Positions 3,088 through 33,513 of a stretch of DNA of 64,000 nucleotides are shown piece after piece. Source of the DNA: a virus; the IMG/VR virus record IMGVR_UViG_3300036985_004568, positions 1 to 64,000 of that record, one strand, 5' to 3'. A program made the translations under genes and the position numbers. Within the stretch, counting starts at the first letter, position 1, and each line of letters begins with the position of its first letter. The notes beneath the pieces are model-generated. The model ran no database searches, was not told the DNA's origin, and was given only the letters and a program-made list of their open reading frames with translations.

Positions 3088-3393
3088 ATGGCACAAAAGT
3101 ACAAAGTTGGAGATATAGTTAGGCTGGTTAGGGAGAGGGATGGGGAATCGTGGGAACGTGTTGCACGGATTGAGCATGTCAAATCTTGTAGTGCTTCGGA
3201 TTGTACCTATAGGGACGGAGGAACGCATAGGGAAGAAAGTGGGGAAGTTTGTAAGCAATGTGATGGTTCTATGTATGACTGTAGAGTTATTGCAGGTAAA
3301 GGAAGGAATTATCAAGAAGGTCATCTAGGAGCTTGGGCAGGATATAACATGCAGAAACTAACAGACGAAGAACTAGCATTCTATCTTCTGTAA
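3088..3393 (+). CDS. SH3-like Cys-loop protein, C-terminal tag family
   Basis: ATG 3088 follows AAGGAGG; KYKVGDIV, CSASDC..CKQCDG, ends QKLTDEELAFYLL. Paralogs at 6742 and 7053. Confidence 0.75.
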   Translation: MAQKYKVGDIVRLVRERDGESWERVARIEHVKSCSASDCTYRDGGTHREESGEVCKQCDGSMYDCRVIAGKGRNYQEGHLGAWAGYNMQKLTDEELAFYLL

Positions 3394-3407
3394 TGAGAGG
3401 AGGTTAT

Positions 3408-3761
3408 ATGAGTAAAGCTGTACGTAAGAACGCTAAATGGCACTTGGTAGATATCCCTGAGACTATGGTCCTTACGCCGGATCTACCACGAAGACAACGG
3501 GCCTTCAGAGGCAGGCATTGCAACCGGTGTGGCATTCCTATCTCAGCTGGAGAAGAACACCTAGCAATGTTCTTTAAGACAGACAAGTTCTTTATGATGC
3601 GGCATAACTTATGTTGTATCTGTGGGTTAGAACTATTATTAGAGTCCCTACAAAGGGCGGAAGCTTTGTATCTCTATGTCCAGCAACAGATCAAATCTGT
3701 ACGTAAGTACATTAAGAACAAGAACTTAACTCTAGTTAGGGATGTACATAACCACGTTTAA
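3408..3761 (+). CDS. Zinc-finger plus coiled-coil hypothetical protein
   Basis: CNRC...HNLCCIC; GGAGG RBS before ATG 3408. Confidence 0.6.
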   Translation: MSKAVRKNAKWHLVDIPETMVLTPDLPRRQRAFRGRHCNRCGIPISAGEEHLAMFFKTDKFFMMRHNLCCICGLELLLESLQRAEALYLYVQQQIKSVRKYIKNKNLTLVRDVHNHV

Positions 3762-3926
3762 GGCCCCTTGGTGGTCCTAAGAAGTCGCCTGAAGCCCAAT
3801 GCCTAGGTTCTACCAAGATCGTTTAAATTGGCTCTATAAAACGCCAGTAGCTAGGCCATTCTACCCTGGGGTAACAAGTGCAATAATTACAATTATTATT
3901 GGGAATAGCAATTAAGCACAATTTAC

Positions 3927-3955
3927 TTGACAAATCAACAAAGATGTGTTATACT
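3927..3955 (+). promoter_or_regulatory. Sigma70-type early promoter
   Basis: TTGACA-17 nt-TATACT with extended -10 TG, upstream of the RBS and ATG 3982. Confidence 0.85.
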
Positions 3956-3981
3956 TTAACCAAATAACTGAAAGGAGCATT

Positions 3982-4551
3982 ATGTTAGTAAGCAGAGGGA
4001 ACCATAAGTTGGGGACTGATACCTTGATCTTGAACATCACCAGCGCGGCCGATTGCATGTCTCGGAAGCTGGGTCTTTGTGCTCTAGGTACCAAGTGTTA
4101 TGCTATGAAGGCTGAGCGCATGTATAAAGCCGTCCTGCCTTACCGGAGTAAACAGACTGAGTATTGGGACCAGAATCATCCGGCCACGATTGCAATGGAT
4201 CTCTGGAAGGAAGTTTCCAGGACTACCAAGCAACCAATCAAGTACATTCGGATCTCAGAAGCAGGAGACTTCAGGGACCAAGCAGACGTAGACAAGTTGA
4301 TCAAAATAGCAGAAATACTTGGGGCTATTGATGTTACGTTATATGGATACACGGCCCGTAAGGACCTAGCCTTTGGTAAGTGCCCGAGCAACCTGATCAT
4401 GAATGGCTCAGGGTTTATGATTCACAATAGCTTCACGGCCGTACCTAAAGTTAGCCTGGCCCAGCACAAGGTAACATGCGCGGGGAACTGCCGGGGATGC
4501 AACCTTTGTAAGATCCGCGGGAAGCTGGCCATCAAAGTGGGGATACACTGA
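3982..4551 (+). CDS. GP88-family protein (radical-SAM-like Cys cluster)
   Basis: C-x7-C-x5-CYA, RISEAGDF, YGYT and C-terminal CAGNCRGCNLC, typical of phage gp88 proteins. Confidence 0.7.
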   Translation: MLVSRGNHKLGTDTLILNITSAADCMSRKLGLCALGTKCYAMKAERMYKAVLPYRSKQTEYWDQNHPATIAMDLWKEVSRTTKQPIKYIRISEAGDFRDQADVDKLIKIAEILGAIDVTLYGYTARKDLAFGKCPSNLIMNGSGFMIHNSFTAVPKVSLAQHKVTCAGNCRGCNLCKIRGKLAIKVGIH

Positions 4552-4763
4552 TGAAGAGCACACATGGGCCCGTACGCTTACCAAAGTATACCAAGCGGAA
4601 ATGGATCTGTAAGAAGCTTAATACCTGTGGTTCTCCAGACTGTTTATGTTATAAGCCACATGAACATAGTTCTAGATGTGGTCACTTTTGTTCTGCTGAA
4701 CCTGCTGGATATGGTACCTGTAGGCCCCTAGTAAAGGGGGAGGAGCTAATCTATGGCTACTAA
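4551..4763 (+). CDS. Cys/His zinc-binding mini-protein, C-terminal tag family
   Basis: IC-x5-C-x4-C..KPH; ends CRPLVKGEELIYGY. Confidence 0.75.
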   Translation: MKSTHGPVRLPKYTKRKWICKKLNTCGSPDCLCYKPHEHSSRCGHFCSAEPAGYGTCRPLVKGEELIYGY

Positions 4764-4986
4764 AATTAGAACAGATAGTTATGAACCAATAAAGGGAACT
4801 GTAATATGTAGGGGTCACCTAGACTGCCGTTCCAAAATGGGTTGTCCCCATCATAAGTTACATAAGTGGATAAAAAATGAAGAAGGCCGTCCAAGTCATC
4901 AAGAATGTTTCAACCAAATACTTGGTCCTTCCCACTGTGACTGTATCCCAATGACCAAAGTAGGACTTCTATTGGAGTCCTATTAA
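4753..4986 (+). CDS. Cys/His zinc-binding mini-protein, C-terminal tag family
   Basis: Close paralog of 5449; ends CIPMTKVGLLLESY. Confidence 0.75.
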   Translation: MATKIRTDSYEPIKGTVICRGHLDCRSKMGCPHHKLHKWIKNEEGRPSHQECFNQILGPSHCDCIPMTKVGLLLESY

Positions 4987-5168
4987 TGGTAAAGTTAATA
5001 TGTTCCAAGTGGTTAAAGTGTACTAATAAAGAGTGTCCCGCCAAGGTGGCCCATGTGGCACGCCATGGGTGTTGTGATGGCCCTAAGTGTTATTATGAAT
5101 CTAATATTGGGAGAAAGGTAAAGTGTAGAAAACTAACTAAGGAAGAGGAAATTTTAATCTATTATTAA
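4986..5168 (+). CDS. Cys/His zinc-binding mini-protein, C-terminal tag family
   Basis: ICSKWLKCTNKEC; ends CRKLTKEEEILIYY. Confidence 0.75.
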   Translation: MVKLICSKWLKCTNKECPAKVAHVARHGCCDGPKCYYESNIGRKVKCRKLTKEEEILIYY

Positions 5169-5231
5169 AGGAGACTCAATGAAACTAATGGAAAAGTTAT
5201 TCCCCCCTCAGGGCTACCAAGGGAGGCCTAA

Positions 5232-5459
5232 ATGTCTAAAGAAGTGATCTGTGACCACTACAAAGAATGTAAAGCTAAAGGATGCCACCATATTAAACCA
5301 CATACAACTGTTGACTTTTCTGCTATACTAAGAAGATCCTTTGCTACAAAGACTACCTGCCTTGATCCTGATTTATGTACTGGCCTAACTCTATCATTTC
5401 CGGTTAGAGTAAGATGTAGAGCTTTAAAGAAGGGTGAGAAGCTAATCTATGCCTACTAA
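5232..5459 (+). CDS. Cys/His zinc-binding mini-protein, C-terminal tag family
   Basis: ICDHYKECKAKGCHHIKPH; ends CRALKKGEKLIYAY. Confidence 0.75.
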   Translation: MSKEVICDHYKECKAKGCHHIKPHTTVDFSAILRRSFATKTTCLDPDLCTGLTLSFPVRVRCRALKKGEKLIYAY

Positions 5460-5685
5460 ACAACGTAAAGATATGTGGGAGCCAATTAAAGGATGGGTAA
5501 TTTGTCAGGGCTACAAGACCTGTTCATCCAAAAGAGCATGTCTTCATTCTAGGTTGCATAGGTGGAGAAGGTCCCCAAAGTTTAAAGAGGGGATAGATTG
5601 TTGCTATAATAGTGATTCTAGTAAACAAAATACTTGTAACTGCTCACATAAAACTAAAACAGAATTAATGCTGGAGGCCTATTAA
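5449..5685 (+). CDS. Cys/His zinc-binding mini-protein, C-terminal tag family
   Basis: Paralog of 4753; ends CSHKTKTELMLEAY. Confidence 0.75.
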   Translation: MPTKQRKDMWEPIKGWVICQGYKTCSSKRACLHSRLHRWRRSPKFKEGIDCCYNSDSSKQNTCNCSHKTKTELMLEAY

Positions 5686-5870
5686 TGGAAAAACGAATCT
5701 GTCCACGCGCTGGAACTTGTTGTGATTATGCTCCCTGTAAGCATAGTCGGCCACATATACCCAATGATAACTGTTATGCTACCACCATTCTCTGTACATA
5801 CCACTGCTGTGAAGCCACTCCTGAATTACTGGAGAAGATAGAAGCAGAGAAGATAGTAAATAATTATTAA
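5685..5870 (+). CDS. Cys/His zinc-binding mini-protein
   Basis: ICPRAGTCCDYAPCKHSRPH; ends KIVNNY. Confidence 0.7.
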   Translation: MEKRICPRAGTCCDYAPCKHSRPHIPNDNCYATTILCTYHCCEATPELLEKIEAEKIVNNY

Positions 5871-5972
5871 GCACTTTGAGAAAGGTGCGTTAGCAAGTAC
5901 GCTAGAGGCACGATTAGCAAAAAACTCGATTTCGAGAACTCTGTGTTAGCAGAGAATGAGAGGAGAATTTAT

Positions 5973-6068
5973 ATGTCTCCCACCTTAATTCACTTATTTG
6001 ATGATATATTCAGTACTCTATTGGGTATTTTGGATGATATAGTCAATACTATACTAGGAGAAAACTAA
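5973..6068 (+). CDS. 31-aa amphipathic peptide (not in ORF track)
   Basis: AGGAG RBS; MSPTLIHLFDDIFSTLLGILDDIVNTILGEN; TAATG overlap with the next gene. Confidence 0.45.
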   Translation: MSPTLIHLFDDIFSTLLGILDDIVNTILGEN

Positions 6069-6370
6069 TGTTAATTAGCCTATTTAACTGGTTTATTCAT
6101 TTAAATAACCCTATTGTAGCTGTTTTACTCATAGCTTTACCCTTTATAATTGCTGGATATATAGAAATAAATAGGGAGAAAGCCTGTAAAATAGGTAGAA
6201 TAGTCTATGATAAAGAGAGTAAGATAATAGGTAGAATTGATGGGGAAATAGATATGGACGGTACTATAAGACTTACGAATGACAGAGGAACTTATTGGTA
6301 TACGCAAGTGGGGAAGCTTAGAAGATTAACCCCTAAAGAAAGGTTTGATTATTATGTCCAATCTCTTTGA
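6068..6370 (+). CDS. Membrane-anchored SH3-like hypothetical protein
   Basis: N-terminal hydrophobic helix; ends RRLTPKERFDYYVQSL. Confidence 0.6.
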   Translation: MLISLFNWFIHLNNPIVAVLLIALPFIIAGYIEINREKACKIGRIVYDKESKIIGRIDGEIDMDGTIRLTNDRGTYWYTQVGKLRRLTPKERFDYYVQSL

Positions 6371-6723: not shown

Positions 6724-6741
6724 TAACACAAGGAGAATAGA

Positions 6742-7056
6742 ATGTTTGAGATTGGAACATTTATAAAGTGTAAAAGGAAATCAAGATGGAAATATCAGGA
6801 AGATAAGATTCTCATATTTAAAATAGTAAGTACTAGGCTCTGTCAAGAAGCTAGCTGTATCTGGGGTAAAACTGAATCAGGCAAGAAGAAGATTTGTTCT
6901 AAATGTGATGGCATTATGTATCGGGGTTTAAATATACGAAAACCAGTTAAACCCAAGTCTTTTAATCTAGGGAAAAAGAAACCCTATGATTTTTCTTTGG
7001 CGGGATTTGATATGATACAAATTTCAGAAGCCGAGGTAATGGTGGAGCTGTTATGA
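6742..7056 (+). CDS. SH3-like Cys-loop protein, C-terminal tag family
   Basis: FEIGTF, CQEASC..CSKCDGIMYR, ends AGFDMIQISEAEVMVELL. Confidence 0.75.
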   Translation: MFEIGTFIKCKRKSRWKYQEDKILIFKIVSTRLCQEASCIWGKTESGKKKICSKCDGIMYRGLNIRKPVKPKSFNLGKKKPYDFSLAGFDMIQISEAEVMVELL

Positions 7057-7325
7057 AAACATTTAAAGTCAAAGATATAGTTTTATTTAAGCGGCCTACA
7101 AATGGGGAAGAATTTAGAGTTATTATTGGCAGGATTACTAGCCTTGAAAAATGTACACCCGAAGTAGATTGTAGCTATAAGGGTACAAATAAGTTCTGTA
7201 ATAAATGTCACCACATAAAGTATAGGATTAAATCCCTAAATATAGCTAAGCCTCCGTTTGGGTATATGGCTGGCTTTAATTGTCAAAAATTAAATTCTGT
7301 AGAGGTTGCAGTCTATTTAATGTAG
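7053..7325 (+). CDS. SH3-like Cys-loop protein, C-terminal tag family
   Basis: FKVKDIV, CTPEVDC..CNKC, ends AGFNCQKLNSVEVAVYLM. Confidence 0.75.
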   Translation: MKTFKVKDIVLFKRPTNGEEFRVIIGRITSLEKCTPEVDCSYKGTNKFCNKCHHIKYRIKSLNIAKPPFGYMAGFNCQKLNSVEVAVYLM

Positions 7326-7334: not shown

Positions 7335-7631
7335 ATGCAAGATACAGAAACGGGGGAATCTAAATACCAAAGAGTAAGAAGGCATATTGACGAAATAAGT
7401 ATATTAGCTGGAATACTTTATAAGTATGTGAGTACTTTACGGGATGGTATAAAATCTAAAGAAATACAGATTGACGATGAAATGAAGCGGTTAAAGGAAA
7501 TCATTAGCTCCATTCGCAATAAACGAATAACCCTTAATAAAGATAAAACCTGTATTGAAGAATGCAAACAGGTATTAAAGAAGTGTTATAGGATAAATTT
7601 AGATGCCTTAGAAACAGCCGAGGAACTATAA
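7335..7631 (+). CDS. Coiled-coil hypothetical protein
   Basis: AGGAGG RBS; helical composition. Confidence 0.6.
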   Translation: MQDTETGESKYQRVRRHIDEISILAGILYKYVSTLRDGIKSKEIQIDDEMKRLKEIISSIRNKRITLNKDKTCIEECKQVLKKCYRINLDALETAEEL

Positions 7632-7861
7632 TGCCTAAACCAGAAATACACTTAACTGTACAAACAAACTATGTAGGAATTATTGCTTGTTCTAAATGTG
7701 GTTATGAATGTGCTTGGACTTCAAAGAATTATAATGATGGTAAATGTAAGCGATGCGGTAAAGATACCAAGAATATAATTACTAATTGTTCCGCAAACTC
7801 AAAACGACCATTAAATCAAACTATACAAGCTTACATAAGAGAACTTGGAGGAACAATATGA
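7631..7861 (+). CDS. Zinc-ribbon protein
   Basis: CSKC...CKRC. Confidence 0.6.
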   Translation: MPKPEIHLTVQTNYVGIIACSKCGYECAWTSKNYNDGKCKRCGKDTKNIITNCSANSKRPLNQTIQAYIRELGGTI

Positions 7862-8199
7862 ATATTCTAGATGGTATTTTAGAATTAGAGGAATTACTTA
7901 CTCAATTAAATTATAAATCTAAAGAACCCTTTAAAGAGGGGGCTAAGGTTTTAATATGGGTAAATAAAACTTTTATATCAGCAACATTTGTAAAGTATAC
8001 CCCCTGTGATTCCGACAATTATGTAGAATGTAGAACATGTTTTAAGTATATGGAATTTAAAGATATTATACCGCCCTACCACGAAGTCTTACCACATATA
8101 TCACGATGTAACACAGCAACTGCCCATAATTCACATCGTAGAGTATTCCTAGCAGATGACCCAATAGTAGATGTAATAAAGATTCATTTTAATTATTAA
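7858..8199 (+). CDS. SH3-like Cys-containing hypothetical protein
   Basis: GGAGG RBS before ATG 7858; FKEGAKV, CRTC; ends IHFNY. Confidence 0.6.
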   Translation: MNILDGILELEELLTQLNYKSKEPFKEGAKVLIWVNKTFISATFVKYTPCDSDNYVECRTCFKYMEFKDIIPPYHEVLPHISRCNTATAHNSHRRVFLADDPIVDVIKIHFNY

Positions 8200-13697: not shown

Positions 13698-14785
13698 TGG
13701 TATTTTCAACGCTATACGCTAATGCAAGTAACGGTAAGATAAAGATGTGGAGCATTGAGGCTGATGGTAATACTATGATAATTCGTAGTGGATATGAGGG
13801 TGGAAAAATGGCCGAGCAAAGAAAAACCATTGTGGGTAAGAATATTGGTAAAGCCAATGAAACTTCAGATGGACAACAATGTCATTTGGAATGCAAATCT
13901 AAGTGGCAGAAGAAGATAGATGAACAATACTGTGAAGACCGTATGAAGATTAAGGAATATGGTGAACAAGAGATATTACTTCCTATGTTGGCCTTGAACT
14001 TTAGAGATAGGGAACACGACATTAAATTTCCCTGCTATGTCCAACCTAAAATTAATGGAGTAAGGTGTATCTATCAAGGAGATAAGTTTATATCCCGTAA
14101 AGGAAAAGAATATACAACTCTCAAGCATCTTGCTATAGAATTAAAGGAACTTGGAATCACTATGCCGGATGGAGAGATTTATGTTCACGGAATGGCCTTT
14201 CAAGAGATAATCCGTAGGGTAAAAAAAGATCGGGGTGTAAAGACACAGGCCTTAGAATATTGGATTTATGATCAAGTTAATGATCAGAAGTTTAAGGCGC
14301 GTAATGATGAAATTAGTAATAAATTTAAGGATTATTTTATCCAGGCTCCTAGTATTAGAAAGTGTAAGATAAAATATGTTGAAACTGTTTTAGTTAACTC
14401 TAAAGAAGAAATTAAACAATGGCACGGTAAATTTGTACAGCAGGGATTTGAAGGAGTAATTATTCGTAATGTGGATGGATTATATAAAGTGAAGCATCGT
14501 TCTCAGGATCTCCAAAAATATAAGGAGTTCTTTGATGCTGAATTTGAGATTGTAGGTTATCACGAAGGAACGGGTACGGATGATGGAACAGTTATATTTG
14601 AAGTAAAAACTAAAAAAGGACAAGTATTTAGTGTCCGGCCCAGGGGAACACATGAAGTAAGGTCGGAGTATTTGGAGGACATTTCTAGCATCATTGGGAA
14701 AGAACTTACAGTTAGATATCAAAACCTTAGTGAGGAAGGTATTCCAATTTTTCCAGTGGGAATATCTATTAGAGACTATGAATAA
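13697..14785 (+). CDS. ATP-dependent DNA ligase with N-terminal WGR-like domain
   Basis: QPKINGVRC (motif I), PDGEIY, FEGVIIR, QKYK, OB-fold tail PIFPV. Confidence 0.9.
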   Translation: MVFSTLYANASNGKIKMWSIEADGNTMIIRSGYEGGKMAEQRKTIVGKNIGKANETSDGQQCHLECKSKWQKKIDEQYCEDRMKIKEYGEQEILLPMLALNFRDREHDIKFPCYVQPKINGVRCIYQGDKFISRKGKEYTTLKHLAIELKELGITMPDGEIYVHGMAFQEIIRRVKKDRGVKTQALEYWIYDQVNDQKFKARNDEISNKFKDYFIQAPSIRKCKIKYVETVLVNSKEEIKQWHGKFVQQGFEGVIIRNVDGLYKVKHRSQDLQKYKEFFDAEFEIVGYHEGTGTDDGTVIFEVKTKKGQVFSVRPRGTHEVRSEYLEDISSIIGKELTVRYQNLSEEGIPIFPVGISIRDYE

Positions 14786-14960
14786 AAGAATGATCTGCAT
14801 ACATAGAACTGAGAAGTGTGTAAGAACAGAATGTGTACATTGCGTACCACATGAAGAGAGACTAGGTATATGTGATAGAAAAGCGTGTGGCTATGCCTTT
14901 AATCAAAAAGCACATTGTAAAGTACTAACTAAAACAGAGTTAATTATTGAATCTTACTAA
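14778..14960 (+). CDS. Cys/His zinc-binding mini-protein, C-terminal tag family
   Basis: ICIHRTEKCVRTECVHCVPH; ends CKVLTKTELIIESY. Confidence 0.75.
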   Translation: MNKRMICIHRTEKCVRTECVHCVPHEERLGICDRKACGYAFNQKAHCKVLTKTELIIESY

Positions 14961-15626: not shown

Positions 15627-15803
15627 ATGGCCAAAGACATGATCTGCCCGGGATATAAAAAATGCCACCCTACAGCTTGTGCTTGTAGGGAGTTGCATGA
15701 ACAGGTCCACATATGTACTTCTTTTACCAGATGTCCTGAAGTAAATAGAAGAATTATATGTCGTAAGGCTACTAAAGAAGAAAAAATATATTTTAACTAT
15801 TAA
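15627..15803 (+). CDS. Cys/His zinc-binding mini-protein, C-terminal tag family (not in ORF track)
   Basis: MAKDMICPGYKKCHPTACACRELH...CRKATKEEKIYFNY. Confidence 0.75.
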   Translation: MAKDMICPGYKKCHPTACACRELHEQVHICTSFTRCPEVNRRIICRKATKEEKIYFNY

Positions 15804-15812: not shown

Positions 15813-15977
15813 ATGAAGAATAGAATATGTCCACGTTATAAAAAATGTAAAGAAGTCTGCTATCATAAAACAGTCCATGAAGTGGAAGACGGATGTGGGT
15901 ATAAATGTACCCCTAATGGAAAGATTGTAAACTGTAGACAAGCTACAATGGGAGAAATAATTATAGCGAATTTCTAA
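15813..15977 (+). CDS. Cys/His zinc-binding mini-protein, C-terminal tag family (not in ORF track)
   Basis: MKNRICPRYKKCKEVCYHKTVH...CRQATMGEIIIANF. Confidence 0.75.
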   Translation: MKNRICPRYKKCKEVCYHKTVHEVEDGCGYKCTPNGKIVNCRQATMGEIIIANF

Positions 15978-16192: not shown

Positions 16193-17257
16193 ATGTCTCG
16201 TGTATTTAAAAGTATTATTGCCGGGTTAATTCTTATTGCTTTAGCTTTACAGGCCAAGTTCTTACAAGGAATAAATAATAAACTGTCATTTATGGACCAA
16301 GGACAGAGCATTATTACTTATGATTTAGATATACTTAATAAGAATTTACTAAATACTAATAATAATGTAATAGAAGGAGCACAGGCCACATTTGAATTAA
16401 ATAATGTGATGGTTAAAATTATGCAGGCAATAGATGGAAATAGTGTGGAACGGGATAATCAATTAACTGTTCAATTAGATAAATTAGTGGAATCTCTTGC
16501 CAAAGAAATTAAACTTAATAAAATACGAGATGCTTATTTAGCCAAAGTAACTAATTTTATTCTTAAAAAAAACCGTGATGAAGTAATGACACAAGAATTA
16601 TTTGATAGAGAAATTGAAGGGATAAGAAAACTAATTTCCCAATCAGAAGATGCGACAAGATTAGGAAGGGAATTAATTGAACATAATATAATGTTAAGCA
16701 ATATTATGCTTTATAATAATGAGGAGGGCACACAGGGATCTGGAATTACTATTAAGTTAAAAGATAAGTATTTTATACTTTCTGCTGCCCATTTAGTCTC
16801 AAATGATAAACAAATACTACAATTAGTAGAAAATGGAATTACTGTTTGTGATGTGCGCGTGGTACGTTGGGACAAAAAATTTGACTTACTCCTATTGGAA
16901 ACAGTTGATCCAGATATACAACCAAGAGTATGGACTACAATTGCCGTTAATGAGCCTCAAAAAGGGATTGATTCAATTTATGTTTGTGGAAATCCAATAG
17001 GTCTGGAAGACGTTTTAAGTACAGCAAGGGTAATAAAATATACAGGAGATTTCTTTTATTATTTAAATCATAGTTATTTCGGATCTTCTGGTGGGGGAAT
17101 ATTTAATATATCAGGAGAATTAGTTGGTACCATATCCCACTTGATTGCAGTTGATCCTACACCAGTAGGAATTGTAACGCAACGCTCCCCCATGTTTGTA
17201 ATTCATGGAGCTACGCGTACTCAAGCTATTCATAAATTCTTGGAAGGACTAGAGTAA
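16193..17257 (+). CDS. Membrane-anchored trypsin-like (S1) serine protease with coiled-coil stalk
   Basis: N-terminal transmembrane helix; catalytic triad motifs LSAAHLV, DLLLL, FGSSGGGIFN. Confidence 0.85.
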   Translation: MSRVFKSIIAGLILIALALQAKFLQGINNKLSFMDQGQSIITYDLDILNKNLLNTNNNVIEGAQATFELNNVMVKIMQAIDGNSVERDNQLTVQLDKLVESLAKEIKLNKIRDAYLAKVTNFILKKNRDEVMTQELFDREIEGIRKLISQSEDATRLGRELIEHNIMLSNIMLYNNEEGTQGSGITIKLKDKYFILSAAHLVSNDKQILQLVENGITVCDVRVVRWDKKFDLLLLETVDPDIQPRVWTTIAVNEPQKGIDSIYVCGNPIGLEDVLSTARVIKYTGDFFYYLNHSYFGSSGGGIFNISGELVGTISHLIAVDPTPVGIVTQRSPMFVIHGATRTQAIHKFLEGLE

Positions 17258-17958: not shown

Positions 17959-18728
17959 TGCCTAAGCAGATATTGGCAGTTGACTTTAGTGAGGTGTTCT
18001 TCTCTTCTGTGTTTGGCCATCAAAGGGCCTGCCAAATGGGTATGAAGTTACCATTAGAGTTTATTGTCTTAAAGAAACTATTCTCCTATCTTAAGGCATT
18101 TCCAGGGAGAGACATTTATATTATGTGCGATGGTACTAAGACTTGGCGCAAAGAAGTATACCCTGAGTACAAGGCACAAAGAAAAGCACAAAGGGAAAAG
18201 CATGAAGACCTGGATTGGACTGATATATTTTTAAAGTATGGTCGGATGATTAGTGATATAGAAAATTACACACCCATGCTCACCTTTAGGGATGATATTT
18301 TAGAGGCAGATGACCTTGAGGCCATCCTCGCTAAAGATGGGGAAGATATAATTATATTTAGTTCGGATAAAGACCTTAACCAGCTAACTATATACCCTAA
18401 CCTAAAATTAGTATCTCCAAAAGGAAAGAAAGTAAAGGGTAAATTTGTTTTTAAAGTAATAGAGGACCCAATAAAAGAATTAGATAAATTAGTGATGAAG
18501 GGGGATGTTGCAGATAATGTACCTAGGGCTTCCTCAGAAGCACAGAGAATAATAAATAATAAAATAGTTAATCTAATAAATCTTCCCACTAACATTGAAG
18601 AGCGTTGTAGGGCTGTACTCAATCAAGCACGATGTAAAACCCCTGACTTAATTGGCTTTTGTAACCTTTATAATTGGCAATTCGTTAGAATAGAGCTTAA
18701 AAAGATTTATCCTAATCATGCACTATAG
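17958..18728 (+). CDS. 5'-3' exonuclease / flap endonuclease (T4 RNase H-like)
   Basis: AVDF, CDG..WRKEVYPEYKAQR, EADD, SSDKDLNQL, GDVADNV. Confidence 0.88.
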   Translation: MPKQILAVDFSEVFFSSVFGHQRACQMGMKLPLEFIVLKKLFSYLKAFPGRDIYIMCDGTKTWRKEVYPEYKAQRKAQREKHEDLDWTDIFLKYGRMISDIENYTPMLTFRDDILEADDLEAILAKDGEDIIIFSSDKDLNQLTIYPNLKLVSPKGKKVKGKFVFKVIEDPIKELDKLVMKGDVADNVPRASSEAQRIINNKIVNLINLPTNIEERCRAVLNQARCKTPDLIGFCNLYNWQFVRIELKKIYPNHAL

Positions 18729-18963
18729 AGCAAAGTTAAAGTTAAAGATAGGTGGATGGTACAGGACACAGAAGGGGGAGATTTATAAAATTGTGAAATG
18801 CCCCCATGAAGGATGTAGTGGAGACCACTGTTCTAACCAATTGATGGTATGTATGTATTCTCCTAAACGGATCATACGAAGTACGCTCTGTGGTAGTGGA
18901 TCAATACGGGCCGAACTTATCTATTATTGTACAGATGAAGAAATAACATTTCATTCATTATGA
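18718..18963 (+). CDS. SH3-like Cys-loop protein, C-terminal tag family
   Basis: LKIGGWY, Cys cluster; ends CTDEEITFHSL. Confidence 0.7.
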   Translation: MHYRAKLKLKIGGWYRTQKGEIYKIVKCPHEGCSGDHCSNQLMVCMYSPKRIIRSTLCGSGSIRAELIYYCTDEEITFHSL

Positions 18964-19232
18964 AGCCAAAAATATTAAAATATAAAAAAGGGGACCTCTT
19001 TAAACATATTGATCATTTTGGTAAAGTTGAGTACTTTGTTGTTAGAGAATGTCGTTCAAGGGGATTTTGTGAACTAGCAGTAGCCAAAGCTACTATAAAT
19101 AAATTAGACTGTAAAGGGTTAGGTTTATACGCACTAGATAAGAAAGATTGGATATCCAGTTGCTCTAATTCTCAGCACCACCAGGAAATGAAAAAGTTAA
19201 CTGAAGCTGAAAAAATGTTAATGGGATACTAA
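18960..19232 (+). CDS. SH3-like Cys-loop protein, C-terminal tag family
   Basis: YKKGDLF, Cys cluster; ends KKLTEAEKMLMGY. Confidence 0.7.
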   Translation: MKPKILKYKKGDLFKHIDHFGKVEYFVVRECRSRGFCELAVAKATINKLDCKGLGLYALDKKDWISSCSNSQHHQEMKKLTEAEKMLMGY

Positions 19233-27208: not shown

Positions 27209-27576
27209 TGCGCCTACTCATATGTGGAGACCGTAACTGGAAAAATAAGGAATTAATCTTAAATGTTATTAGGGCTATAAGACCTAAGCCTAAAGTTGTA
27301 ATATGTGGTGGTGCCAGTGGCGCTGACACTCTTGCAAAAGAAGTGGCTCTAGAGTTGGGGATTCCAGTTAAAGAATTTATGGCAAATTGGGCACAGTTTG
27401 GTAAGGCAGCTGGCCCAATGCGAAATAAACAAATGTTGCAAGAAGGCAAGCCCACGTATGTTATTGCCTTTCATGATGATATAAAGAACTCTAAAGGTAC
27501 GGCTCATATGCTTTACATTTCTAAGTATTATAAAATACGTACAACTTTATATACTACGAGAGGAATTGAAAAATGA
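27208..27576 (+). CDS. SLOG-family YspA/DUF2493 protein
   Basis: LLICGDRNW, GGASGADTLA, GKAAGPMRNKQM, SKGTAHM. Confidence 0.88.
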   Translation: MRLLICGDRNWKNKELILNVIRAIRPKPKVVICGGASGADTLAKEVALELGIPVKEFMANWAQFGKAAGPMRNKQMLQEGKPTYVIAFHDDIKNSKGTAHMLYISKYYKIRTTLYTTRGIEK

Positions 27577-30500
27577 TTAAGAACCTCGGATCCACTTTAG
27601 AGACTTTAAAACCTTTTCTTAGGAAGTACCTACTGGTTAAAGGCACACAGTTTAAGGGTAGGTTGTTCTCCTGTCCTAATAAACAGGCTCATAAAAACCT
27701 GGATATTAAACCAGGTTGTAATTTTCTGGATAAAGAGGAAACTAAATTTTATTGCTATGTTTGCCTCCCCGGGCATGAAGAAGTAAGGACCTCATTAGGG
27801 CTTAAACCTATTAAAGATCTACTTATAGGGGAAAAGGTATATACAAGACTGGGACAAGAGACAACCCTTATTAATAAAGTAAAACATGATCCCCAGTATG
27901 CTATCATAAATTTGCAAACCGGCCTTACTCCTATTGGCCATAGTATGACCCAAAATCATGCGATTCCCATAATTAAACAAGAGCAAGTATATACAATGCC
28001 CTATATTGAATTAATTCCAAATAGGTATAAATTTTCTAGTAGGGCCTTTTATAGAAACCATATTTCTAAATATACTGATGTTTTAAATATCTTTAAAGTG
28101 CCCGCTAAAGATATTAGAGTTGGGGATTATTTATTATATCCAGAAACTAGACATATTACCGATTACTCTAAAATCTATACAGATAGAATAATTAAAAAAT
28201 ATACAAAAGGCCCCATGAATAAACGTATTACAAAAATTCCACTAGAGGACGACATTTTATGGATGTTTGGTCTCTATATTGCAGAGGGTAATACATATAG
28301 AGGAGGGGTAAGGTTTACTTTACATAAAAATGAAACTGCCTATCAAATAAAATTAAAGCAAATTTTTAAAACATATTTTGCTAAAGACTTAGTTGAGCGC
28401 GTTCATAATAATTCTTGGACTGCTACTTGTTCATCTACAGACCTAGAGCTTATTTTTAGAGAATTATTTAATGATTTAGCAGAAAATAAAATATATCCAT
28501 ATTTCTTTAATTATCTCCCTATTGATAAGCGGCATGCCTTATTTTCTGGAATAATGGCTGGGGATGGATCTAAAACAAGAGAATTTATTAAAATAACTAG
28601 TTCTGCCCTGATTGCACAATTATTTGATTTAGGTATATCCTTACATAAAATCCCTAGTTATCAAGAATACCCAGAATATACGGATAACATGGGAATTAGG
28701 CATTTAAAAACTTATAGTCTTTCTTTTATAAGACCCTCACTCAGGGGATTTTTTGAGACTATTGAAGGTGTTACTTATTTATTACAACAAGTAACTAAAA
28801 TTTCCTTATGTGGACAGGAGCCGGTATATGATATAACCGTAAAAGATCAAGATCATTCCTTTGTTGGAAAATTCTTTACTTTTTATAATTGTGGCGCATC
28901 TGGTGATATCGTAGATGCAGTACATCTTTTAGAGGCTAGACCTATAACTGGTTCAGGTTTTCATGATACAATAGAATACTTATGTAAGTTAGTTAAGGTA
29001 CCATTTGAATTGGCTGAAGAGACCCCAGAGTCTAAATTTATGCAAGAGGTAGAGGCCTTCTTGGGTGCTTTAGTGTCCAAAGCCCATACTAATCTTAAAA
29101 ATTTAGTAGTTACTCAGCCCGAACATCCGGCGGTTAAACTATTACAGACTAAGGGATGGTTAAATAGTGTAGACACCTATAAACTTGGATTGATCCAAGC
29201 GGTTAAGGAGAATAAGTCCCAGAAATTGATGGATGTTTGTAACTTTTTAAATTTAGACCTTAATCACTTAGTTAATGGTATTATTATTCCAATTGAGTTT
29301 AAGCATAAGTTAATAGGATTTCAGATCAGAGCCACTGATTTAAATACATTAGGGGGCATGAAGTATAAGACTTATTTATCTACTAGTAAAGGATTGTTTA
29401 ACCTAGATAATATTGATGCCTCCCAACCAGTCTATATAGTAGAAGGGGCCTCATCTGTTATAGTTATGCATAACTTTGGAATAGACAATGTTGTTTCTAC
29501 CTTAGGTAACGGATTAAATGAATCCCACTATGAGGCATTAATTTCTAAGGATGTTAAAGATGTATGTGTATTATATGACAATGATGAAGGTGGAGAGTTA
29601 GGTAGAAAACGGGGTTGTGAGACATTTGTAGGTAAGGGCGAGATCAAACTAAACTTCAAACTATTGTCTAAGGAGAATGACCCGGCCGATTATGTGTTGG
29701 CAGGTAATAAATTAGAAACTTTACCAACATTAACTTTATGGGATTACCTTTTACACAAAGGATATAAAGAGTTGATGTTAAAGTATGTAGCAGCACAGCA
29801 GGATTTAATTGATAAAGAGAAGTTGGTTAATATACTAGCTAAAGAACTAGATGTTCCTAAGAGCATACTCTTGGAAGAAATCCATAAGTATGAAAGCACA
29901 ATAAGTGAAGTTCCCACCATCATGTCTTTAAAAGAGAAGGAAAGTATTATTGAGACTATTAATACTTTCGAAAAATGGGCATGGAGTCGTGGGGAATTAC
30001 TGGGAATAAAATCATTTGATTGCTTTGATAAATGCTTTGATGGATTACAGGAAGGATTGATTTTGGTAGGTGGTGCGCCTAACGTAGGAAAATGCTTAAG
30101 TGGGGAGACTCTTATCCAAACTACTTTAGGGTTAGTTCCGATACAGAACCTATTTAAAGAAAAAAATAAAGTAATAGGTACATTTACTAATCCTACAGAT
30201 AAATTCTCAGTTCCCGGCCCACTTAGTTTAGAGCCAGTAACCAAACTTTATTATACAAAAAGTAAATGTTATAAGGTAATTTTAAATAATGGCCGAGAAA
30301 TTATAGGAACGCCAGAACATCCCCTCTTAACTAATATTGGGGTATTTAAACAGCTTAAAGAACTCACTTTAAAGGACCAACTAATAACTAGTAATGGGGC
30401 AAATATTTGGGGGACTAAAGTTACTTTAAATAAATTTGTGCCTTCCCAACAATTATTGGCTACTGCAACCATAATTCCTAAAATGTATCCAATAGAATTA

Positions 30501-32129
30501 ACCAAAGATTTAGCCTTTTTACTCGGATTATATATAGGAGATGGCGCATGTTTTGCTCCAGATTTTTCTATTACCCAAAAAACACCGTATAATACAACTA
30601 TAAATAAACTGATTAAAAAACTCTTTGGTATTAGGCCCCACACATATAAATTGGAATTGTCGGCAGGTAGGTTAATTCGAACCTATTTTGAGGAAATATT
30701 AGGAGTGCCCTATGTTACAGGTGGGTATAAAGAAGTCCCTTCTTGTATATGGACTGCCCCCAAAGAGGTTGTAGCTGCATTTATAAGTGGTTATTTTGCT
30801 GCCGATGGATATATAAATAAAACTAGAGTCGAGATTAGTTTAACTACAAAATCTTATAAAATGTCCCAACAATTGGCTACACTATTAGATAATTTTGGTG
30901 TAAGAAATTATATTAGGGTAGTAAATAGATGTGCATCTAATACTAAATTAAAAATTAAACGAAACTATTATACAGTTACAGTACGTGGAACCTATGAAGA
31001 TGCTGTACGTTTTAGAAGTGAAGTTTGTAGTAATCGTACGGGAAGATCCGGAAAATTCCATGCTCTAGAAAAATTAACTGGACAGTTTAATAGAAGTTAT
31101 CAGCCACTTAGGACGAATACAGGTATACGGTTTGAGCCTATGGGAATAAAAGAAATAATTTATTTAACAAAAGAACAAGAAGTATATGATATTAGTGTAC
31201 CAACAACGCACCAGTTTATTGCTAATGGCATTGTAAGTCATAATAGCGCGCTTACAACGTCAATAGCCTGTAGAATTATGGAGACCACTCCAAATCCCTA
31301 TATTATCTATTTGAGTATAGACGATTCTGCTATTATAACTACGGCTAGATTTTTAGCTAACTTATCTGGTATTCCTATTAATATTGTTTCAAATCCTAAA
31401 CATCGTATTGTTGAAAATAAGTATTATACGGATGCCGAAAGAAAAGATTTGATGGTGCGTAGAGAAAAGGCCCTAGAGTATATGCGTAAACATGTGACTG
31501 TCTTTAATTTGAAGGATGCGTCTAGTGGATATACTATTGAATATTTAAATACACTCTTTAAATCCCTAGAACCTATTATTAAAGATAAGAAGGTTGTCTT
31601 AATAGTGGATAATCTGCATAAATTACGAAGTCTTAGGGATTTTAAGAGTGATAAGTCTTTGGTGGACTCTGTATGTAGTAATTTAAAGATTCTTTCAGGT
31701 GTGTACAAGTGCCCAGTAATAGCCACTGTTGAACATACAAAGGCATCTATACAATTAGGTGAAGTTGGAGGTTCGGCGATAAAAGAGTCCTCTTCGTTGC
31801 ATTATGATGCTAATTTAATTCTGACTGTTGTGCTAAAGCAGGTGGTTGGTACCTTTAAATTGGTTGATGTAATAGTTAGTAAAAATAAAATGAGTACTTT
31901 TATTGGAGCCCTACCCTTTAGACTATATCCTGATCAAAGTAGAATGGAAGCCTGTGATGGAAATGCCTCTAACTTTGGATTACCCCAGGATGGACCTGTA
32001 TCCCAAGAAGTTAAAACTGAACCTATTACTCAAGGAGAACCTGATGGAAAAATTTCAAGTAATGGAGAAGGAAATCCTATTAATAAAGAACAAGGAACTC
32101 CAGGAGTGGGTACGGAAGAGCCTAAATAA
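27573..32129 (+). CDS. Primase-helicase fusion (CHC2 zinc finger, TOPRIM, DnaB-like) containing two inteins
   Basis: CPxxxxH..CYV|CGASGD, YIVEG, LYDNDEGG, NDPAD, GAPNVGK|S, IVDNLH, YDANL, KNK. Confidence 0.92.
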   Translation: MIKNLGSTLETLKPFLRKYLLVKGTQFKGRLFSCPNKQAHKNLDIKPGCNFLDKEETKFYCYVCLPGHEEVRTSLGLKPIKDLLIGEKVYTRLGQETTLINKVKHDPQYAIINLQTGLTPIGHSMTQNHAIPIIKQEQVYTMPYIELIPNRYKFSSRAFYRNHISKYTDVLNIFKVPAKDIRVGDYLLYPETRHITDYSKIYTDRIIKKYTKGPMNKRITKIPLEDDILWMFGLYIAEGNTYRGGVRFTLHKNETAYQIKLKQIFKTYFAKDLVERVHNNSWTATCSSTDLELIFRELFNDLAENKIYPYFFNYLPIDKRHALFSGIMAGDGSKTREFIKITSSALIAQLFDLGISLHKIPSYQEYPEYTDNMGIRHLKTYSLSFIRPSLRGFFETIEGVTYLLQQVTKISLCGQEPVYDITVKDQDHSFVGKFFTFYNCGASGDIVDAVHLLEARPITGSGFHDTIEYLCKLVKVPFELAEETPESKFMQEVEAFLGALVSKAHTNLKNLVVTQPEHPAVKLLQTKGWLNSVDTYKLGLIQAVKENKSQKLMDVCNFLNLDLNHLVNGIIIPIEFKHKLIGFQIRATDLNTLGGMKYKTYLSTSKGLFNLDNIDASQPVYIVEGASSVIVMHNFGIDNVVSTLGNGLNESHYEALISKDVKDVCVLYDNDEGGELGRKRGCETFVGKGEIKLNFKLLSKENDPADYVLAGNKLETLPTLTLWDYLLHKGYKELMLKYVAAQQDLIDKEKLVNILAKELDVPKSILLEEIHKYESTISEVPTIMSLKEKESIIETINTFEKWAWSRGELLGIKSFDCFDKCFDGLQEGLILVGGAPNVGKCLSGETLIQTTLGLVPIQNLFKEKNKVIGTFTNPTDKFSVPGPLSLEPVTKLYYTKSKCYKVILNNGREIIGTPEHPLLTNIGVFKQLKELTLKDQLITSNGANIWGTKVTLNKFVPSQQLLATATIIPKMYPIELTKDLAFLLGLYIGDGACFAPDFSITQKTPYNTTINKLIKKLFGIRPHTYKLELSAGRLIRTYFEEILGVPYVTGGYKEVPSCIWTAPKEVVAAFISGYFAADGYINKTRVEISLTTKSYKMSQQLATLLDNFGVRNYIRVVNRCASNTKLKIKRNYYTVTVRGTYEDAVRFRSEVCSNRTGRSGKFHALEKLTGQFNRSYQPLRTNTGIRFEPMGIKEIIYLTKEQEVYDISVPTTHQFIANGIVSHNSALTTSIACRIMETTPNPYIIYLSIDDSAIITTARFLANLSGIPINIVSNPKHRIVENKYYTDAERKDLMVRREKALEYMRKHVTVFNLKDASSGYTIEYLNTLFKSLEPIIKDKKVVLIVDNLHKLRSLRDFKSDKSLVDSVCSNLKILSGVYKCPVIATVEHTKASIQLGEVGGSAIKESSSLHYDANLILTVVLKQVVGTFKLVDVIVSKNKMSTFIGALPFRLYPDQSRMEACDGNASNFGLPQDGPVSQEVKTEPITQGEPDGKISSNGEGNPINKEQGTPGVGTEEPK
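27762..28889 (+). mobile_element. Intein 1 with LAGLIDADG endonuclease (376 aa), in the primase zinc finger
   Basis: Starts CLPGHEEVRT; block B TQNH; GLYIAEG and SGIMAGDG; VYDITV; ends FYN followed by Cys+1. Confidence 0.88.
30093..31244 (+). mobile_element. Intein 2 with LAGLIDADG endonuclease (384 aa), in the helicase P-loop
   Basis: GK|CLSGETLI, TPEHP, GLYIGDG, SGYFAADG, VYDISV, GIVSHN|S. Confidence 0.93.
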
Positions 32130-32586
32130 TACTCCCGACTATTTCTTTAAGGGTTGGGCATCCTCCACAGGTAAATACCATCCCGCGTGTACCTGTAAAG
32201 ATGGGGGCCTAGTAGTGCATGTTAAACGCGCTGTTTACATTGCTAATAGGCTATGTGGTGGGTGGGGTTTAGTAGAAGAAAATAGGGATATAGTTCTAGC
32301 TGCAACTATTCTACATGATATAGCTAAAGTTGGGCAGGGATCTGGTCCTTATATAGACTATGTTAATCATCCATTAAATGCTGAGAAGTATTTAATACAA
32401 GACAGCCTTACTCCAGAATTATATACTAAAATTAATAATTGTATACGTCATCATATGGGACTATGGACTCCCGATGGAGTTAAGAAGCCCCTTACAGAGT
32501 ATAGTTTGCTAGAATTGGCAACCTACTCAGCGGACTATATGGCAACTACTAAGGACTTGATTACTCCGGAGGACACACTTGGATAA
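32044..32586 (+). CDS. HD-domain phosphohydrolase (YhaM-like HD domain)
   Basis: ASSTGKYHP, GGLVVH, LHDIAK, HP, HHMG, ADY. Confidence 0.85.
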   Translation: MEKFQVMEKEILLIKNKELQEWVRKSLNNTPDYFFKGWASSTGKYHPACTCKDGGLVVHVKRAVYIANRLCGGWGLVEENRDIVLAATILHDIAKVGQGSGPYIDYVNHPLNAEKYLIQDSLTPELYTKINNCIRHHMGLWTPDGVKKPLTEYSLLELATYSADYMATTKDLITPEDTLG

Positions 32587-33256
32587 ATTAGCCTTAGAGC
32601 AGAGAATTAAGGAACTAGCGCCCTGGTTTCACTATATAGAATTTCCTTATGGTTTAAAGTCCAGAGAGTGCAAGGACCTCAAACATGATGTCTATAACCA
32701 TCCTTTATCCCTAGCAGATAGATTGGAGAAAGTACTTCCAATTAATAGTGTAAAGGATAAATTGATTCTAGATATGGGGTGTAATGGAGGTTACTTTACT
32801 TACCTATATGCTAAAAATGGGGGTAGAGTGGATGCAATGGACCTTAATCGACGTTATGTGGATCAAACTAAATTTGTACGGGAAGTCTTCTCTGAGGAAT
32901 TTAGTACCATGCCAACAGTGTCTATGGCCGATATTGAAACATTAGCAATGCCTCCAGAAACTTACGATATAAGTTTAGGACTAGGTCTTTTATATCACGT
33001 CCCTAATCCCGTCCTTGCCTTACATAATTTCTATAAGGTAACTAAAACGGGAGGACTTTGCATCTTAGAGTCTAATTGCTCTCCTAAAATACCAGAAGGT
33101 ACTGTAGAATTTATGGGAAATATTAAACCATATAGTGCAGTCTGGAGATTTTCTGCACAGACATTAAGAGATATGGTAGAGTATGTCGGATTTAATGTAG
33201 AGGAAAGTATTGTATTTTCTGCCGGTAATAGGATAATCATATACGCCACTAAATGA
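32579..33256 (+). CDS. Class I SAM methyltransferase (DUF1698/CmoB-like)
   Basis: PWFHYIE, ILDMGCNGGYF, GLLYHVPNP, KTGG. Confidence 0.85.
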   Translation: MDKLALEQRIKELAPWFHYIEFPYGLKSRECKDLKHDVYNHPLSLADRLEKVLPINSVKDKLILDMGCNGGYFTYLYAKNGGRVDAMDLNRRYVDQTKFVREVFSEEFSTMPTVSMADIETLAMPPETYDISLGLGLLYHVPNPVLALHNFYKVTKTGGLCILESNCSPKIPEGTVEFMGNIKPYSAVWRFSAQTLRDMVEYVGFNVEESIVFSAGNRIIIYATK

Positions 33257-33513
33257 GTATTAGAAATAATAAATTTAAAGTAGGCCAGATTTGGAAACGG
33301 ACCTTTTCTGATGCAGTCATGTATCAGATTGTATCTTGTAATAAGGGTAAAAATACGTATGCTGACTTTGATCCTATACTATGTAAACGATGTACTATTA
33401 ATTCCATGTTACTACCACCAAAGTGTAATTTAGGATATTGTTGTAGACTACATGTAAATAATACTCATATTAAAAAGTTAACAAAACTTGAAGCATTACT
33501 GGAGAATTTTTAA
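33253..33513 (+). CDS. SH3-like Cys-loop protein, C-terminal tag family
   Basis: FKVGQIW, CKRC; ends KKLTKLEALLENF. Confidence 0.7.
   Translation: MSIRNNKFKVGQIWKRTFSDAVMYQIVSCNKGKNTYADFDPILCKRCTINSMLLPPKCNLGYCCRLHVNNTHIKKLTKLEALLENF

What the first reader, a model, noticed from the sequence alone, without database searches (positions are those of the whole stretch)
3088..33513. Shared C-terminal tag in exact register on at least 14 small proteins from two unrelated families
Seen: last 10 residues, aligned to the stop codon: TDEELAFYLL (3088), VKGEELIYGY (4551), TKVGLLLESY (4753), TKEEEILIYY (4986), KKGEKLIYAY (5232), TKTELMLEAY (5449), SEAEVMVELL (6742), NSVEVAVYLM (7053), TKTELIIESY (14778), TKEEKIYFNY (15627), TMGEIIIANF (15813), TDEEITFHSL (18718), TEAEKMLMGY (18960), TKLEALLENF (33253). 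E is at -7 in 13/14, T/S/N at -10 in 12/14, a hydrophobic patch lies at -6 to -4, and the last residue is Y/L/F/M in 14/14. About ten more ORFs (3, 1016, 1621, 2030, 5685, 6068, 6354, 15248, 19947, 26345) end in a looser hydrophobic-hydrophobic-x-x-[YL]. The carriers are Cys/His zinc mini-domains or SH3-like barrels. Established: S/T-x-x-E is a helix N-capping box, and free C-terminal motifs are read by PDZ/TPR domains, AAA+ proteases and sliding clamps. Inference: this is a modular system of variable effector heads plus a constant docking tail, routing many small phage proteins to one receptor such as a host hub protein, the phage ClpP, or a packaging/export machine.
Basis: partly seen in the sequence, partly recalled or inferred. 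Interest (0 to 1): 0.88.

Follow-up and report, generated by a model that had tools for sequence, protein, structure and literature searches.

The report
Shared C-terminal helix on phage mini-proteins
About fifteen tiny early proteins of an uncultured 95-kb sediment phage, from at least five groups with no other detectable sequence similarity, end in the same capped two-turn helix. The pattern is real and selected as protein, but it looks more like the closing piece of each small fold than a loose address tag, and no reader was found.

Summary
OBSERVATION CONFIRMED AND EXTENDED. All 14 termini read as reported. A stop-anchored profile built only from the Cys-rich family (A) finds 4 non-A termini at p<0.001 (0.15 expected). 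Two of them score above all ~24,000 internal windows.

Conservation acts on the peptide. Codon identity at shared residues is 0.47, equal to expectation, and the next gene's ribosome-binding site covers the -7 Glu in only 2 of 14 genes. In orthologs the tail is better kept than the body in 20 of 20 pairs.

Small early proteins of this phage in general end in Y/F/L/M: 45 of 100, against a 19.5% background, 15% in T4 and 12.5% in a Bacillus phage.

INTERPRETATION PARTLY SUPPORTED. The tail has no linker: an invariant Cys lies 3 residues before the helix cap. Its shared positions match a hydrophobic staple, a capping box and one hydrophobic helix face. AlphaFold predicts strand-turn-helix, with the highest confidence in that block. 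I therefore favour an integral fold-closing module (0.5) over a tag read in trans (0.3).

No reader was identified. The phage does encode non-structural ClpP-like, S1 and MoxR/zincin-VWA proteins.

The scan has noted similar shared tails in other phages. Those notes are unverified.

The parts
3088..3393 (+). 101-aa SH3-like barrel with a C-x4-C...C-x2-C zinc ribbon (group B1). Tail in the last 17 residues, ending hydrophobic-Y-L-L.
   Evidence: Orthologs at 43-83% identity keep the tail almost invariant.
4551..4763 (+). 70-aa Cys/His-rich mini-protein, family A. Its tail overlaps the SD and start of the next gene.
4753..4986 (+). 77-aa family A member, the one carrier with Gly instead of Glu at -7.
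4986..5168 (+). 60-aa family A member with a canonical C-R-K-L-T-K-E-E tail start.
5232..5459 (+). 75-aa family A member.
5449..5685 (+). 78-aa family A member.
5685..5870 (+). It has a 7-residue insertion before the tail helix.
6742..7056 (+). 104-aa group B1 member.
7053..7325 (+). 90-aa group B1 member and the one folded. The model has five strands plus helix 82-89, and a Cys at -14 as in family A.
14778..14960 (+). 60-aa family A member directly after the DNA ligase gene, and the one folded. The model has strand 47-49 and helix 52-59.
15627..15803 (+). 58-aa family A member.
15813..15977 (+). 54-aa family A member.
18718..18963 (+). 81-aa Cys-rich singleton with an SH3-like start and the weakest tail match (Cys at -11).
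18960..19232 (+). 90-aa singleton with an A-type tail that scores above all internal windows with the A-only profile.
33253..33513 (+). 86-aa singleton directly upstream of DNA polymerase A, with an A-type tail that scores above all internal windows.
16193..17257 (+). Trypsin-like (DegP-type catalytic domain) peptidase with no PDZ domain detected. It is only a candidate reader and nothing links it to the tails.
39424..40068 (+). Non-structural ClpP-family protein; the prohead protease is a separate S78 gene next to the capsid gene. It is only a candidate reader.

Best explanation
The 'tag' is a real, peptide-level conserved C-terminal module of about 14-17 residues. It consists of a short beta-strand that carries the last metal ligand or core residue, then a hydrophobic-staple/capping-box helix start (Leu, Thr, two residues, Glu), then a two-turn amphipathic helix whose final Y/L/F residue is the last core anchor.

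It closes the small metal-binding, beta-rich domains of a lineage-specific, fast-evolving set of early and replication-block proteins: nine Cys/His minis, three SH3-like zinc-ribbon proteins and three singletons. It is shared either by descent from one ancestral module or by repeated reuse of the same minimal closing element.

It is the best-conserved part because it is the fold's core, while the heads diversify.

Shown: the motif, its enrichment, peptide-level selection, the absence of a linker and the predicted secondary structure.

Inferred: that the helix packs in cis, and that the module has a common origin.
For: - No linker. The invariant Cys of family A lies at -14, three residues before the cap Thr, and all indels in both alignments lie upstream of the last 14-17 columns.
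- The positions shared across families are -11 Leu, -10 Thr, -7 Glu, then -5, -4 and -1 hydrophobic (an i, i+1, i+4 face). This is the textbook helix-start signal plus one packing face (established knowledge of capping boxes and staples).
- AlphaFold gives strand then helix at the end of both folded proteins, and the tail block has the highest pLDDT: 77 of a mean 70, and 86 of a mean 75.5.
- The B model matches SH3-like, Tudor and chromo-barrel folds at Z 6-7. Several matches are aligned through residues 88-90, folds in which a C-terminal helix caps the barrel.
- Some B1 members carry the same Cys at -14 followed by R/Q-K-L as family A. A greedy profile alignment is collinear through both Cys knuckles, though without significance.
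- The register is not obligatory: P0029 extends the helix by 5 residues and P0013 inserts 4.
- No fused or longer forms exist.
Against: - No sequence similarity outside the tail can be shown between the five groups, so common descent is unproven.
- I could not inspect model coordinates, so cis-packing is inferred.
- A purely structural reading does not obviously explain why 62% of small proteins in the early block and 48% in the replication block end in Y/F/L/M, against 17-18% in the late and structural blocks, 15% in T4 and 12.5% in phage Nachito.
- It also does not explain why the 3088-group helices are hydrophobic on both faces.
Confidence: 0.5

Rival explanations
1. Address label read in trans. 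The capped helix ending in a free hydrophobic or aromatic carboxy-terminus is recognised by one common reader, which handles many early proteins as a group (timed degradation, remodelling or recruitment). Candidate readers are the phage's non-structural ClpP-like protease, its S1 peptidase, its MoxR AAA+/zincin-VWA pair, its family-A DNA polymerase, or a host hub.
For: - At least five sequence groups share the tail in stop-anchored register.
- The tail is more conserved than the body in 20/20 ortholog pairs.
- Hydrophobic ends are enriched specifically in small proteins of the early and replication blocks and not in two control phages.
- The phage encodes three non-structural protease or remodeller systems.
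- Precedents exist: the acidic tails of T7 gp2.5 and gp4 (PMC4124056), and small rapidly diverging precursors with a conserved C-terminal peptide cut by a zincin peptidase beside vWA-MoxR systems (PMC7159879).
Against: - There is no linker, and the tail follows a metal ligand directly.
- The last three residues are group-specific: small or polar residues then Y in family A, Y-L-L in the 3088 group, S-L in 18718.
- Two natural variants break the register.
- No reader was identified, and no co-occurrence test is possible because only one narrow phage lineage carries these genes.
- The peptidase and MoxR genes are not adjacent to most carriers.
Confidence: 0.3
2. Oligomerisation element. The hydrophobic C-terminal helices pair with each other, giving homo- or hetero-oligomers of the paralogs.
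For: The 3088-group tails have five to six consecutive hydrophobic residues, more than one packing face needs.
Against: A two-turn helix is short for a stable helical interface. The family A helices are hydrophobic on one face only.
Confidence: 0.08
3. Paralogy plus chance. The tail is simply inherited within families, and the cross-family likeness is a look-elsewhere effect.
For: Nine carriers are clear paralogs. The tails of 6742, 7053 and 18718 score only p=0.03-0.15 with the A profile.
Against: The A-only profile gives 4 non-A termini at p<0.001 where 0.15 are expected. Two of them score above all ~24,000 internal windows.
Confidence: 0.08
4. DNA-level constraint. The tail reflects the ribosome-binding site and start overlap of the next gene, or a recombination linker at gene ends.
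For: In six genes the SD window of the next gene lies wholly inside the last eight codons (two more are touched at codon -2). GGAG explains a Glu at -3 in four of them, and the -7 Glu region in 4551 and 5232.
Against: - Glu at -7 is present in 13/14 genes but overlaps an SD in only 2.
- Six carriers have no SD in the tail at all.
- Codons at identical residues match at 0.47, equal to the codon-usage expectation, and the highest A-to-B nucleotide identity is 57%.
Confidence: 0.02

Closest known systems
Chromo-barrel / Tudor / Sso7d-type SH3-like barrels capped by a C-terminal helix
   Same: The group B model is a five-stranded SH3-like barrel followed directly by a short C-terminal helix. VIA-align gives Z 6-7 to Tudor, PWWP, chromo-barrel and KOW domains, with several matches aligned to the last residues.
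   Different: There is no sequence relationship. A zinc ribbon is inserted in the barrel. Z below 8 may reflect only a common arrangement. Family A has no fold match at all.
Acidic C-terminal tails ending in Phe of T7 gp2.5 and gp4, which dock on T7 DNA polymerase (PMC4124056 and its ref. 30); by my own knowledge also the T4 clamp-binding C-termini and the SSB C-terminal tip
   Same: Unrelated phage proteins share a C-terminal element with acidic residues and an essential terminal hydrophobic or aromatic residue. Three carriers here sit beside ligase, 5'-3' exonuclease and polymerase A genes.
   Different: Those tails are flexible and disordered. Here the element is a predicted capped helix with no linker, it is found on about 15 tiny proteins of unknown function, and no binding has been shown.
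Peptide-processing systems beside vWA-MoxR conflict systems: a zincin metallopeptidase plus small, rapidly diverging proteins whose C-terminal peptide is the conserved part (Kaur, Burroughs, Iyer and Aravind 2020, PMC7159879)
   Same: The proteins are small and rapidly diverging, with the C-terminus more conserved than the rest. The genome holds a DUF2201 zincin-like/VWA protein next to a MoxR-type AAA+.
   Different: The motif types differ (FxSxx, RxD and acidic types there). The carriers are not adjacent to the peptidase. No radical-SAM or AP-ATPase partner was seen. The context is a phage early region, not a bacterial conflict island.
HbYX / GQYL C-terminal motifs of proteasome activators and ssrA-type C-terminal degrons (own knowledge)
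   Same: Both are free hydrophobic or aromatic C-termini read by a protease complex, and the phage encodes a ClpP-family protein.
   Different: Hydrophobic-Tyr-X in register fits only one or two of the 14 tails. No tail ends in Ala-Ala. ClpP is docked by loops of its ATPases, not by C-terminal tails.

Membership tests
SH3-like / Tudor / chromo-barrel fold (group B) | Five-stranded partly open beta-barrel | tested here: met
   The AlphaFold model of 7053 has five strands (pLDDT 75.5). The best matches are Tudor, PWWP and KOW domains at Z 6-7.1, rmsd 2.1-3.8 A over 50-70 residues. The scores are middling, so this is fold-level similarity only.
SH3-like / Tudor / chromo-barrel fold (group B) | C-terminal helix packed across the barrel (chromo-barrel/Sso7d type) | tested here: inconclusive
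   Helix 82-89 is predicted with the highest pLDDT, and several matches are aligned to residues 88-90. Contacts could not be inspected.
Zinc ribbon | Two Cys knuckles (C-x2-5-C ... C-x2-C) on beta-hairpins | tested here: met
   C39, C55 and C58 are invariant and C34 is kept in 9 of 10 members of the 3088 group. No Pfam, NCBIfam or PDB sequence match was found. Metal binding is untested.
Flexible C-terminal docking tails (T7 gp2.5/gp4, SSB tip, T4 clamp-binding tails) | Disordered tail separated from the fold by a linker | tested here: not met
   There is no linker. The tail follows an invariant Cys or Ala-Gly without indels and is predicted as strand plus helix at the highest confidence.
Flexible C-terminal docking tails (T7 gp2.5/gp4, SSB tip, T4 clamp-binding tails) | Terminal hydrophobic/aromatic residue at the free carboxy-terminus | tested here: met
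   14/14 carriers end in Y/L/F/M. Twelve of 13 relatives found with the SH3-like-set profile stop at the same residue.
Flexible C-terminal docking tails (T7 gp2.5/gp4, SSB tip, T4 clamp-binding tails) | Demonstrated common receptor | not testable with these tools
No receptor test was run.
Zincin-peptidase peptide-processing systems (PMC7159879) | Small rapidly diverging precursor with a more conserved C-terminal peptide | tested here: met
   Tail identity is 0.86 against body identity 0.72, with the tail higher in 20/20 ortholog pairs.
Zincin-peptidase peptide-processing systems (PMC7159879) | Precursor gene adjacent to the zincin metallopeptidase; FxSxx, RxD or acidic motif | tested here: not met
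   The DUF2201 zincin/VWA gene lies at genome 91970-93184, kilobases from most carriers. The motif here is different.
HbYX / ssrA-type protease-docking or degron termini | Hydrophobic-Tyr-X, or Leu-Ala-Ala, as the last three residues | tested here: not met
   From the 14 termini, only 4986 fits hydrophobic-Tyr-X in register, and none ends in Ala-Ala.

The most novel reading that the evidence does not exclude
The capped helix ending in a free Y/L/F is an address label. It is carried by about 15 strict and some 30 looser small early and replication-block proteins of this phage, roughly a quarter of its genes. One reader handles them together, for instance the phage's own non-structural ClpP-like protease, S1 peptidase or MoxR/zincin-VWA machine, for timed removal or remodelling of early proteins. 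The scan's unverified notes on other phages with their own shared tails would then point to a general, undescribed phage strategy.
Probability: 0.27. Interest if true: 0.8.

Novelty: new variant of a known kind. Interest (0 to 1): 0.5.

Why it matters
If the tail is only a fold element, the result is a tidy description of an orphan, fast-evolving family of zinc mini-proteins that makes up about a tenth of a phage's genes. It is useful mainly as a caution against reading every shared terminus as a tag.

Two things remain unexplained: the tail is shared by groups with no other detectable sequence similarity, and small early proteins end in Y/L/F about three times as often as in the control phages.

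If a common reader exists, this would be a simple, testable system in which a phage labels its early proteome for joint handling. No such system is established for phages beyond the few replisome tails.

Tried and rejected
- Pfam, PHROGs, NCBIfam, PDB sequence profiles and the ESM Atlas gave no family for any carrier.
- Foldseek against viral models gave only weak matches to unnamed small SH3-like phage proteins for B and nothing for A.
- The homodimer co-fold of the 3088 group with zinc gave no verdict: score 0.00, controls not run.
- A search for longer or fused forms found none, which is weak evidence.
- Scans of viral contigs with P0030 and P0032 found nothing. The metagenome scan returned one 2-kb contig.
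- The locus found through the GP88-like neighbour (L003) is an unrelated high-GC phage.
- Sequencing runs: no RNA holder is listed. One sediment-metagenome run holds the whole stretch and may be its source. The other four hold small shares that I did not lay.
- Paper searches for phage ClpP, or for paralogous small phage proteins with conserved C-termini, found nothing on point.
- The RBS/overlap and recombination-linker explanations were rejected.
- Model coordinates are not exposed, so burial of the helix could not be computed.
Full report
CONTEXT

The window is the first 64 kb of a single 95,374-bp contig. It is an uncultured tailed phage, and one sediment-metagenome run holds the stretch completely and may be its source. 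No close relative is in the phage collection.

Genes on the + strand run from about 86.8 kb, across the contig end, to 58 kb. This stretch comprises:
- an early block of tiny genes;
- a replication block with RecA-like, RuvB-like, ligase, S1 peptidase, 5'-3' exonuclease, peptide deformylase, an intein-bearing primase-helicase and a UDG-PolA fusion;
- a middle block that includes a ClpP-family gene.

Structural genes lie on the minus strand. They have their own S78 prohead protease fused to a scaffold, next to the capsid gene.

All 14 termini read exactly as reported, and the coordinates given are ORF starts.
- A leave-one-out, stop-anchored profile scores 13 of 14 at 9-25 bits. Only 8e-5 of internal windows reach 10 bits.
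- To avoid circularity I built the profile from the Cys-rich family alone and scored every other C-terminus. Four reach p<0.001 (0.15 expected) and 10-12 reach p<0.01 (1.5 expected). 18960 and 33253 beat all ~24,000 internal windows.
Most of those, however, have the cap Thr at -12 to -14, not in the same register.

WHO CARRIES THE TAIL

Family A has nine members: 4551, 4753, 4986, 5232, 5449, 5685, 14778, 15627 and 15813. They share an invariant I-C, three further invariant Cys, and a Cys and a His kept in at least 90% of members.

3088, 6742 and 7053 form a clear group with a C-x4-C...C-x2-C ribbon. A profile of that group does not detect 18718, 18960 or 33253. So at least five groups share the tail.

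Profile-profile comparison aligns only the last 14-17 columns, end to end (P=0.002-0.004), and nothing once the tails are removed (P=0.28).

Every database tried left these proteins unnamed. The families belong to one narrow phage lineage. One 96.9-kb relative was partly read.

SELECTION ACTS ON THE PEPTIDE

- Where an A tail and a B tail have the same residue, the codon is identical in 47% of cases, exactly what codon usage predicts. The highest nucleotide identity between an A and a B tail is 57%.
- The SD window of the next gene lies wholly inside the tail in six of 14 genes (two more are touched at codon -2). It accounts for a Glu at -3 in four genes and for the -7 region in only two.
- In orthologs, tail identity exceeds body identity in 20 of 20 carrier pairs (0.86 against 0.72). 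The same holds in only 9 of 16 other small proteins. For example, 3088 orthologs at 43-61% overall identity keep the tail nearly unchanged.

A WIDER BIAS

45 of 100 small proteins (130 aa or fewer) end in Y/F/L/M, against a 19.5% background and 12 of 58 large proteins.

By block, the counts are:
- early block: 26 of 42
- replication block: 14 of 29
- middle/late block: 3 of 17
- structural block: 2 of 12

The relative shows the same bias, 30 of 53. Annotated early or replication regions of T4 (7 of 47) and Bacillus phage Nachito (4 of 32) do not.

WHAT THE TAIL LOOKS LIKE

The positions shared across groups are:
- Leu at -11, Thr at -10 and Glu at -7, which form a hydrophobic staple with a capping box;
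- hydrophobic residues at -5, -4 and -1, which form one face of a two-turn helix.

Positions -9, -8, -6, -3 and -2 vary or are group-specific.

An invariant Cys lies at -14 in family A, and the same Cys followed by R/Q-K-L occurs in some 3088-group members. No indel falls inside the last 14-17 columns except in one relative.

AlphaFold (17- and 13-row alignments, mean pLDDT 70 and 75.5) predicts strand-turn-helix at the end of both 14778 and 7053. The tail block is the most confident part of each model.

The 7053 model is an SH3-like barrel: Z 6-7 to Tudor, PWWP, chromo-barrel and KOW domains, with several matches aligned to the last residues. The 14778 model matches no solved fold.

Both models share the same order after the metal-binding loops: three strands and then the helix.

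READING

A tail with no linker that starts three residues after a metal ligand, and whose shared positions are the generic determinants of a short packed helix, is best read as the closing element of each mini-domain.

The likeness between groups then reflects either a common ancestral C-terminal module with heads diverged beyond recognition, or reuse of the same minimal solution. Two natural variants that break the register fit this reading: five extra residues in P0029 and a four-residue insertion in P0013. I put this at 0.5.

This reading does not explain the early-block-specific excess of hydrophobic ends, the double-faced hydrophobicity of the 3088-group helices, or the near-universal stop at the same residue. 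A label read in trans therefore stays a serious rival (0.3).

The phage has plausible readers: a ClpP-like protein that is not its prohead protease, an S1 peptidase, and a MoxR-type AAA+ next to a DUF2201 zincin/VWA protein. Nothing links any of them to the tails. The one complex job I ran, a homodimer test, gave no verdict.

The printed analogues are the T7 replisome tails (PMC4124056) and zincin-processed small proteins with conserved C-terminal peptides beside vWA-MoxR systems (PMC7159879). Defining features of each were tested and not met, as set out in the membership table.

EARLIER NOTES OF THIS SCAN

Another first-stage note on this same genome lists similar ends near the MoxR/VWA pair. 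I confirmed those ends and the pair.

Notes on other phages describe their own shared C-terminal tails. One is an L-S/T-x-D-E-started helix. Another is a case where the tail proved to be the end of a structural strand. These are unverified leads; I did not test them, and they did not set my scores.

Noticed in passing
window 39424-40068 (+), with 39069-39431 overlapping its start: A ClpP-family gene (Pfam E=4.5e-29) sits in the non-structural + strand block, while a separate S78 prohead protease-scaffold fusion sits next to the capsid gene (genome 77223-78542, minus strand). The Ser and His motifs are recognisable. By my recollection of E. coli ClpP, the Asp position reads Gly. The 120-aa upstream gene has no family.
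   Followed up: partly
genome 90882-93184 (outside the window; L006 10882-13184): A MoxR-type AAA+ (weak AAA_5 match) is directly followed by a DUF2201 protein (putative zincin metallopeptidase plus VWA-like domain). The pair is surrounded by small proteins ending in two hydrophobic residues, K/E, N/E, then Leu.
   Followed up: partly
window 3-431 (partial), 2030-2869; genome 94246-95085: Three paralogs of a ~279-aa protein of no known family all end in K-Y-G-Q-Y, then I/L, V/C, F/Y, K-E-L. A fourth copy precedes the 3088-like genes on the 2-kb contig L007.
   Followed up: no
window 4551-5870 versus L001 1408-2226 / L002 10672-11391: This genome has six family A genes in a row, while the 96.9-kb relative has about four different ones at the same place. 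Gene content in this cluster therefore turns over quickly between close relatives.
   Followed up: partly
window 27573-32129 and 33513-35843: The primase-helicase (Toprim plus DnaB-like) is interrupted by a LAGLIDADG intein. The family-A DNA polymerase carries an N-terminal uracil-DNA-glycosylase-superfamily domain.
   Followed up: no
window 19510-19947: A phage-encoded peptide deformylase (Pfam E=7e-26) lies directly after the tail-bearing genes 18718 and 18960.
   Followed up: no
window 12133-12879 and 37281-37775: Two separate genes match RecA. The first covers profile positions 32-261. The second, 25 kb away, covers only positions 158-244.
   Followed up: no
window 8812-9762: A collagen-triple-helix-repeat protein in the + strand early/replication region has three paralogs elsewhere in the genome (55178-56275, and genome 82603-83154 and 83597-85345).
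   Followed up: no
window 6068-6370, 7335-7631, 7858-8199: Three further small proteins outside families A and B have C-termini far better conserved than their bodies between this genome and the relative: tail identity 1.0, 0.86 and 0.71 against body identity 0.51, 0.46 and 0.44.
   Followed up: no
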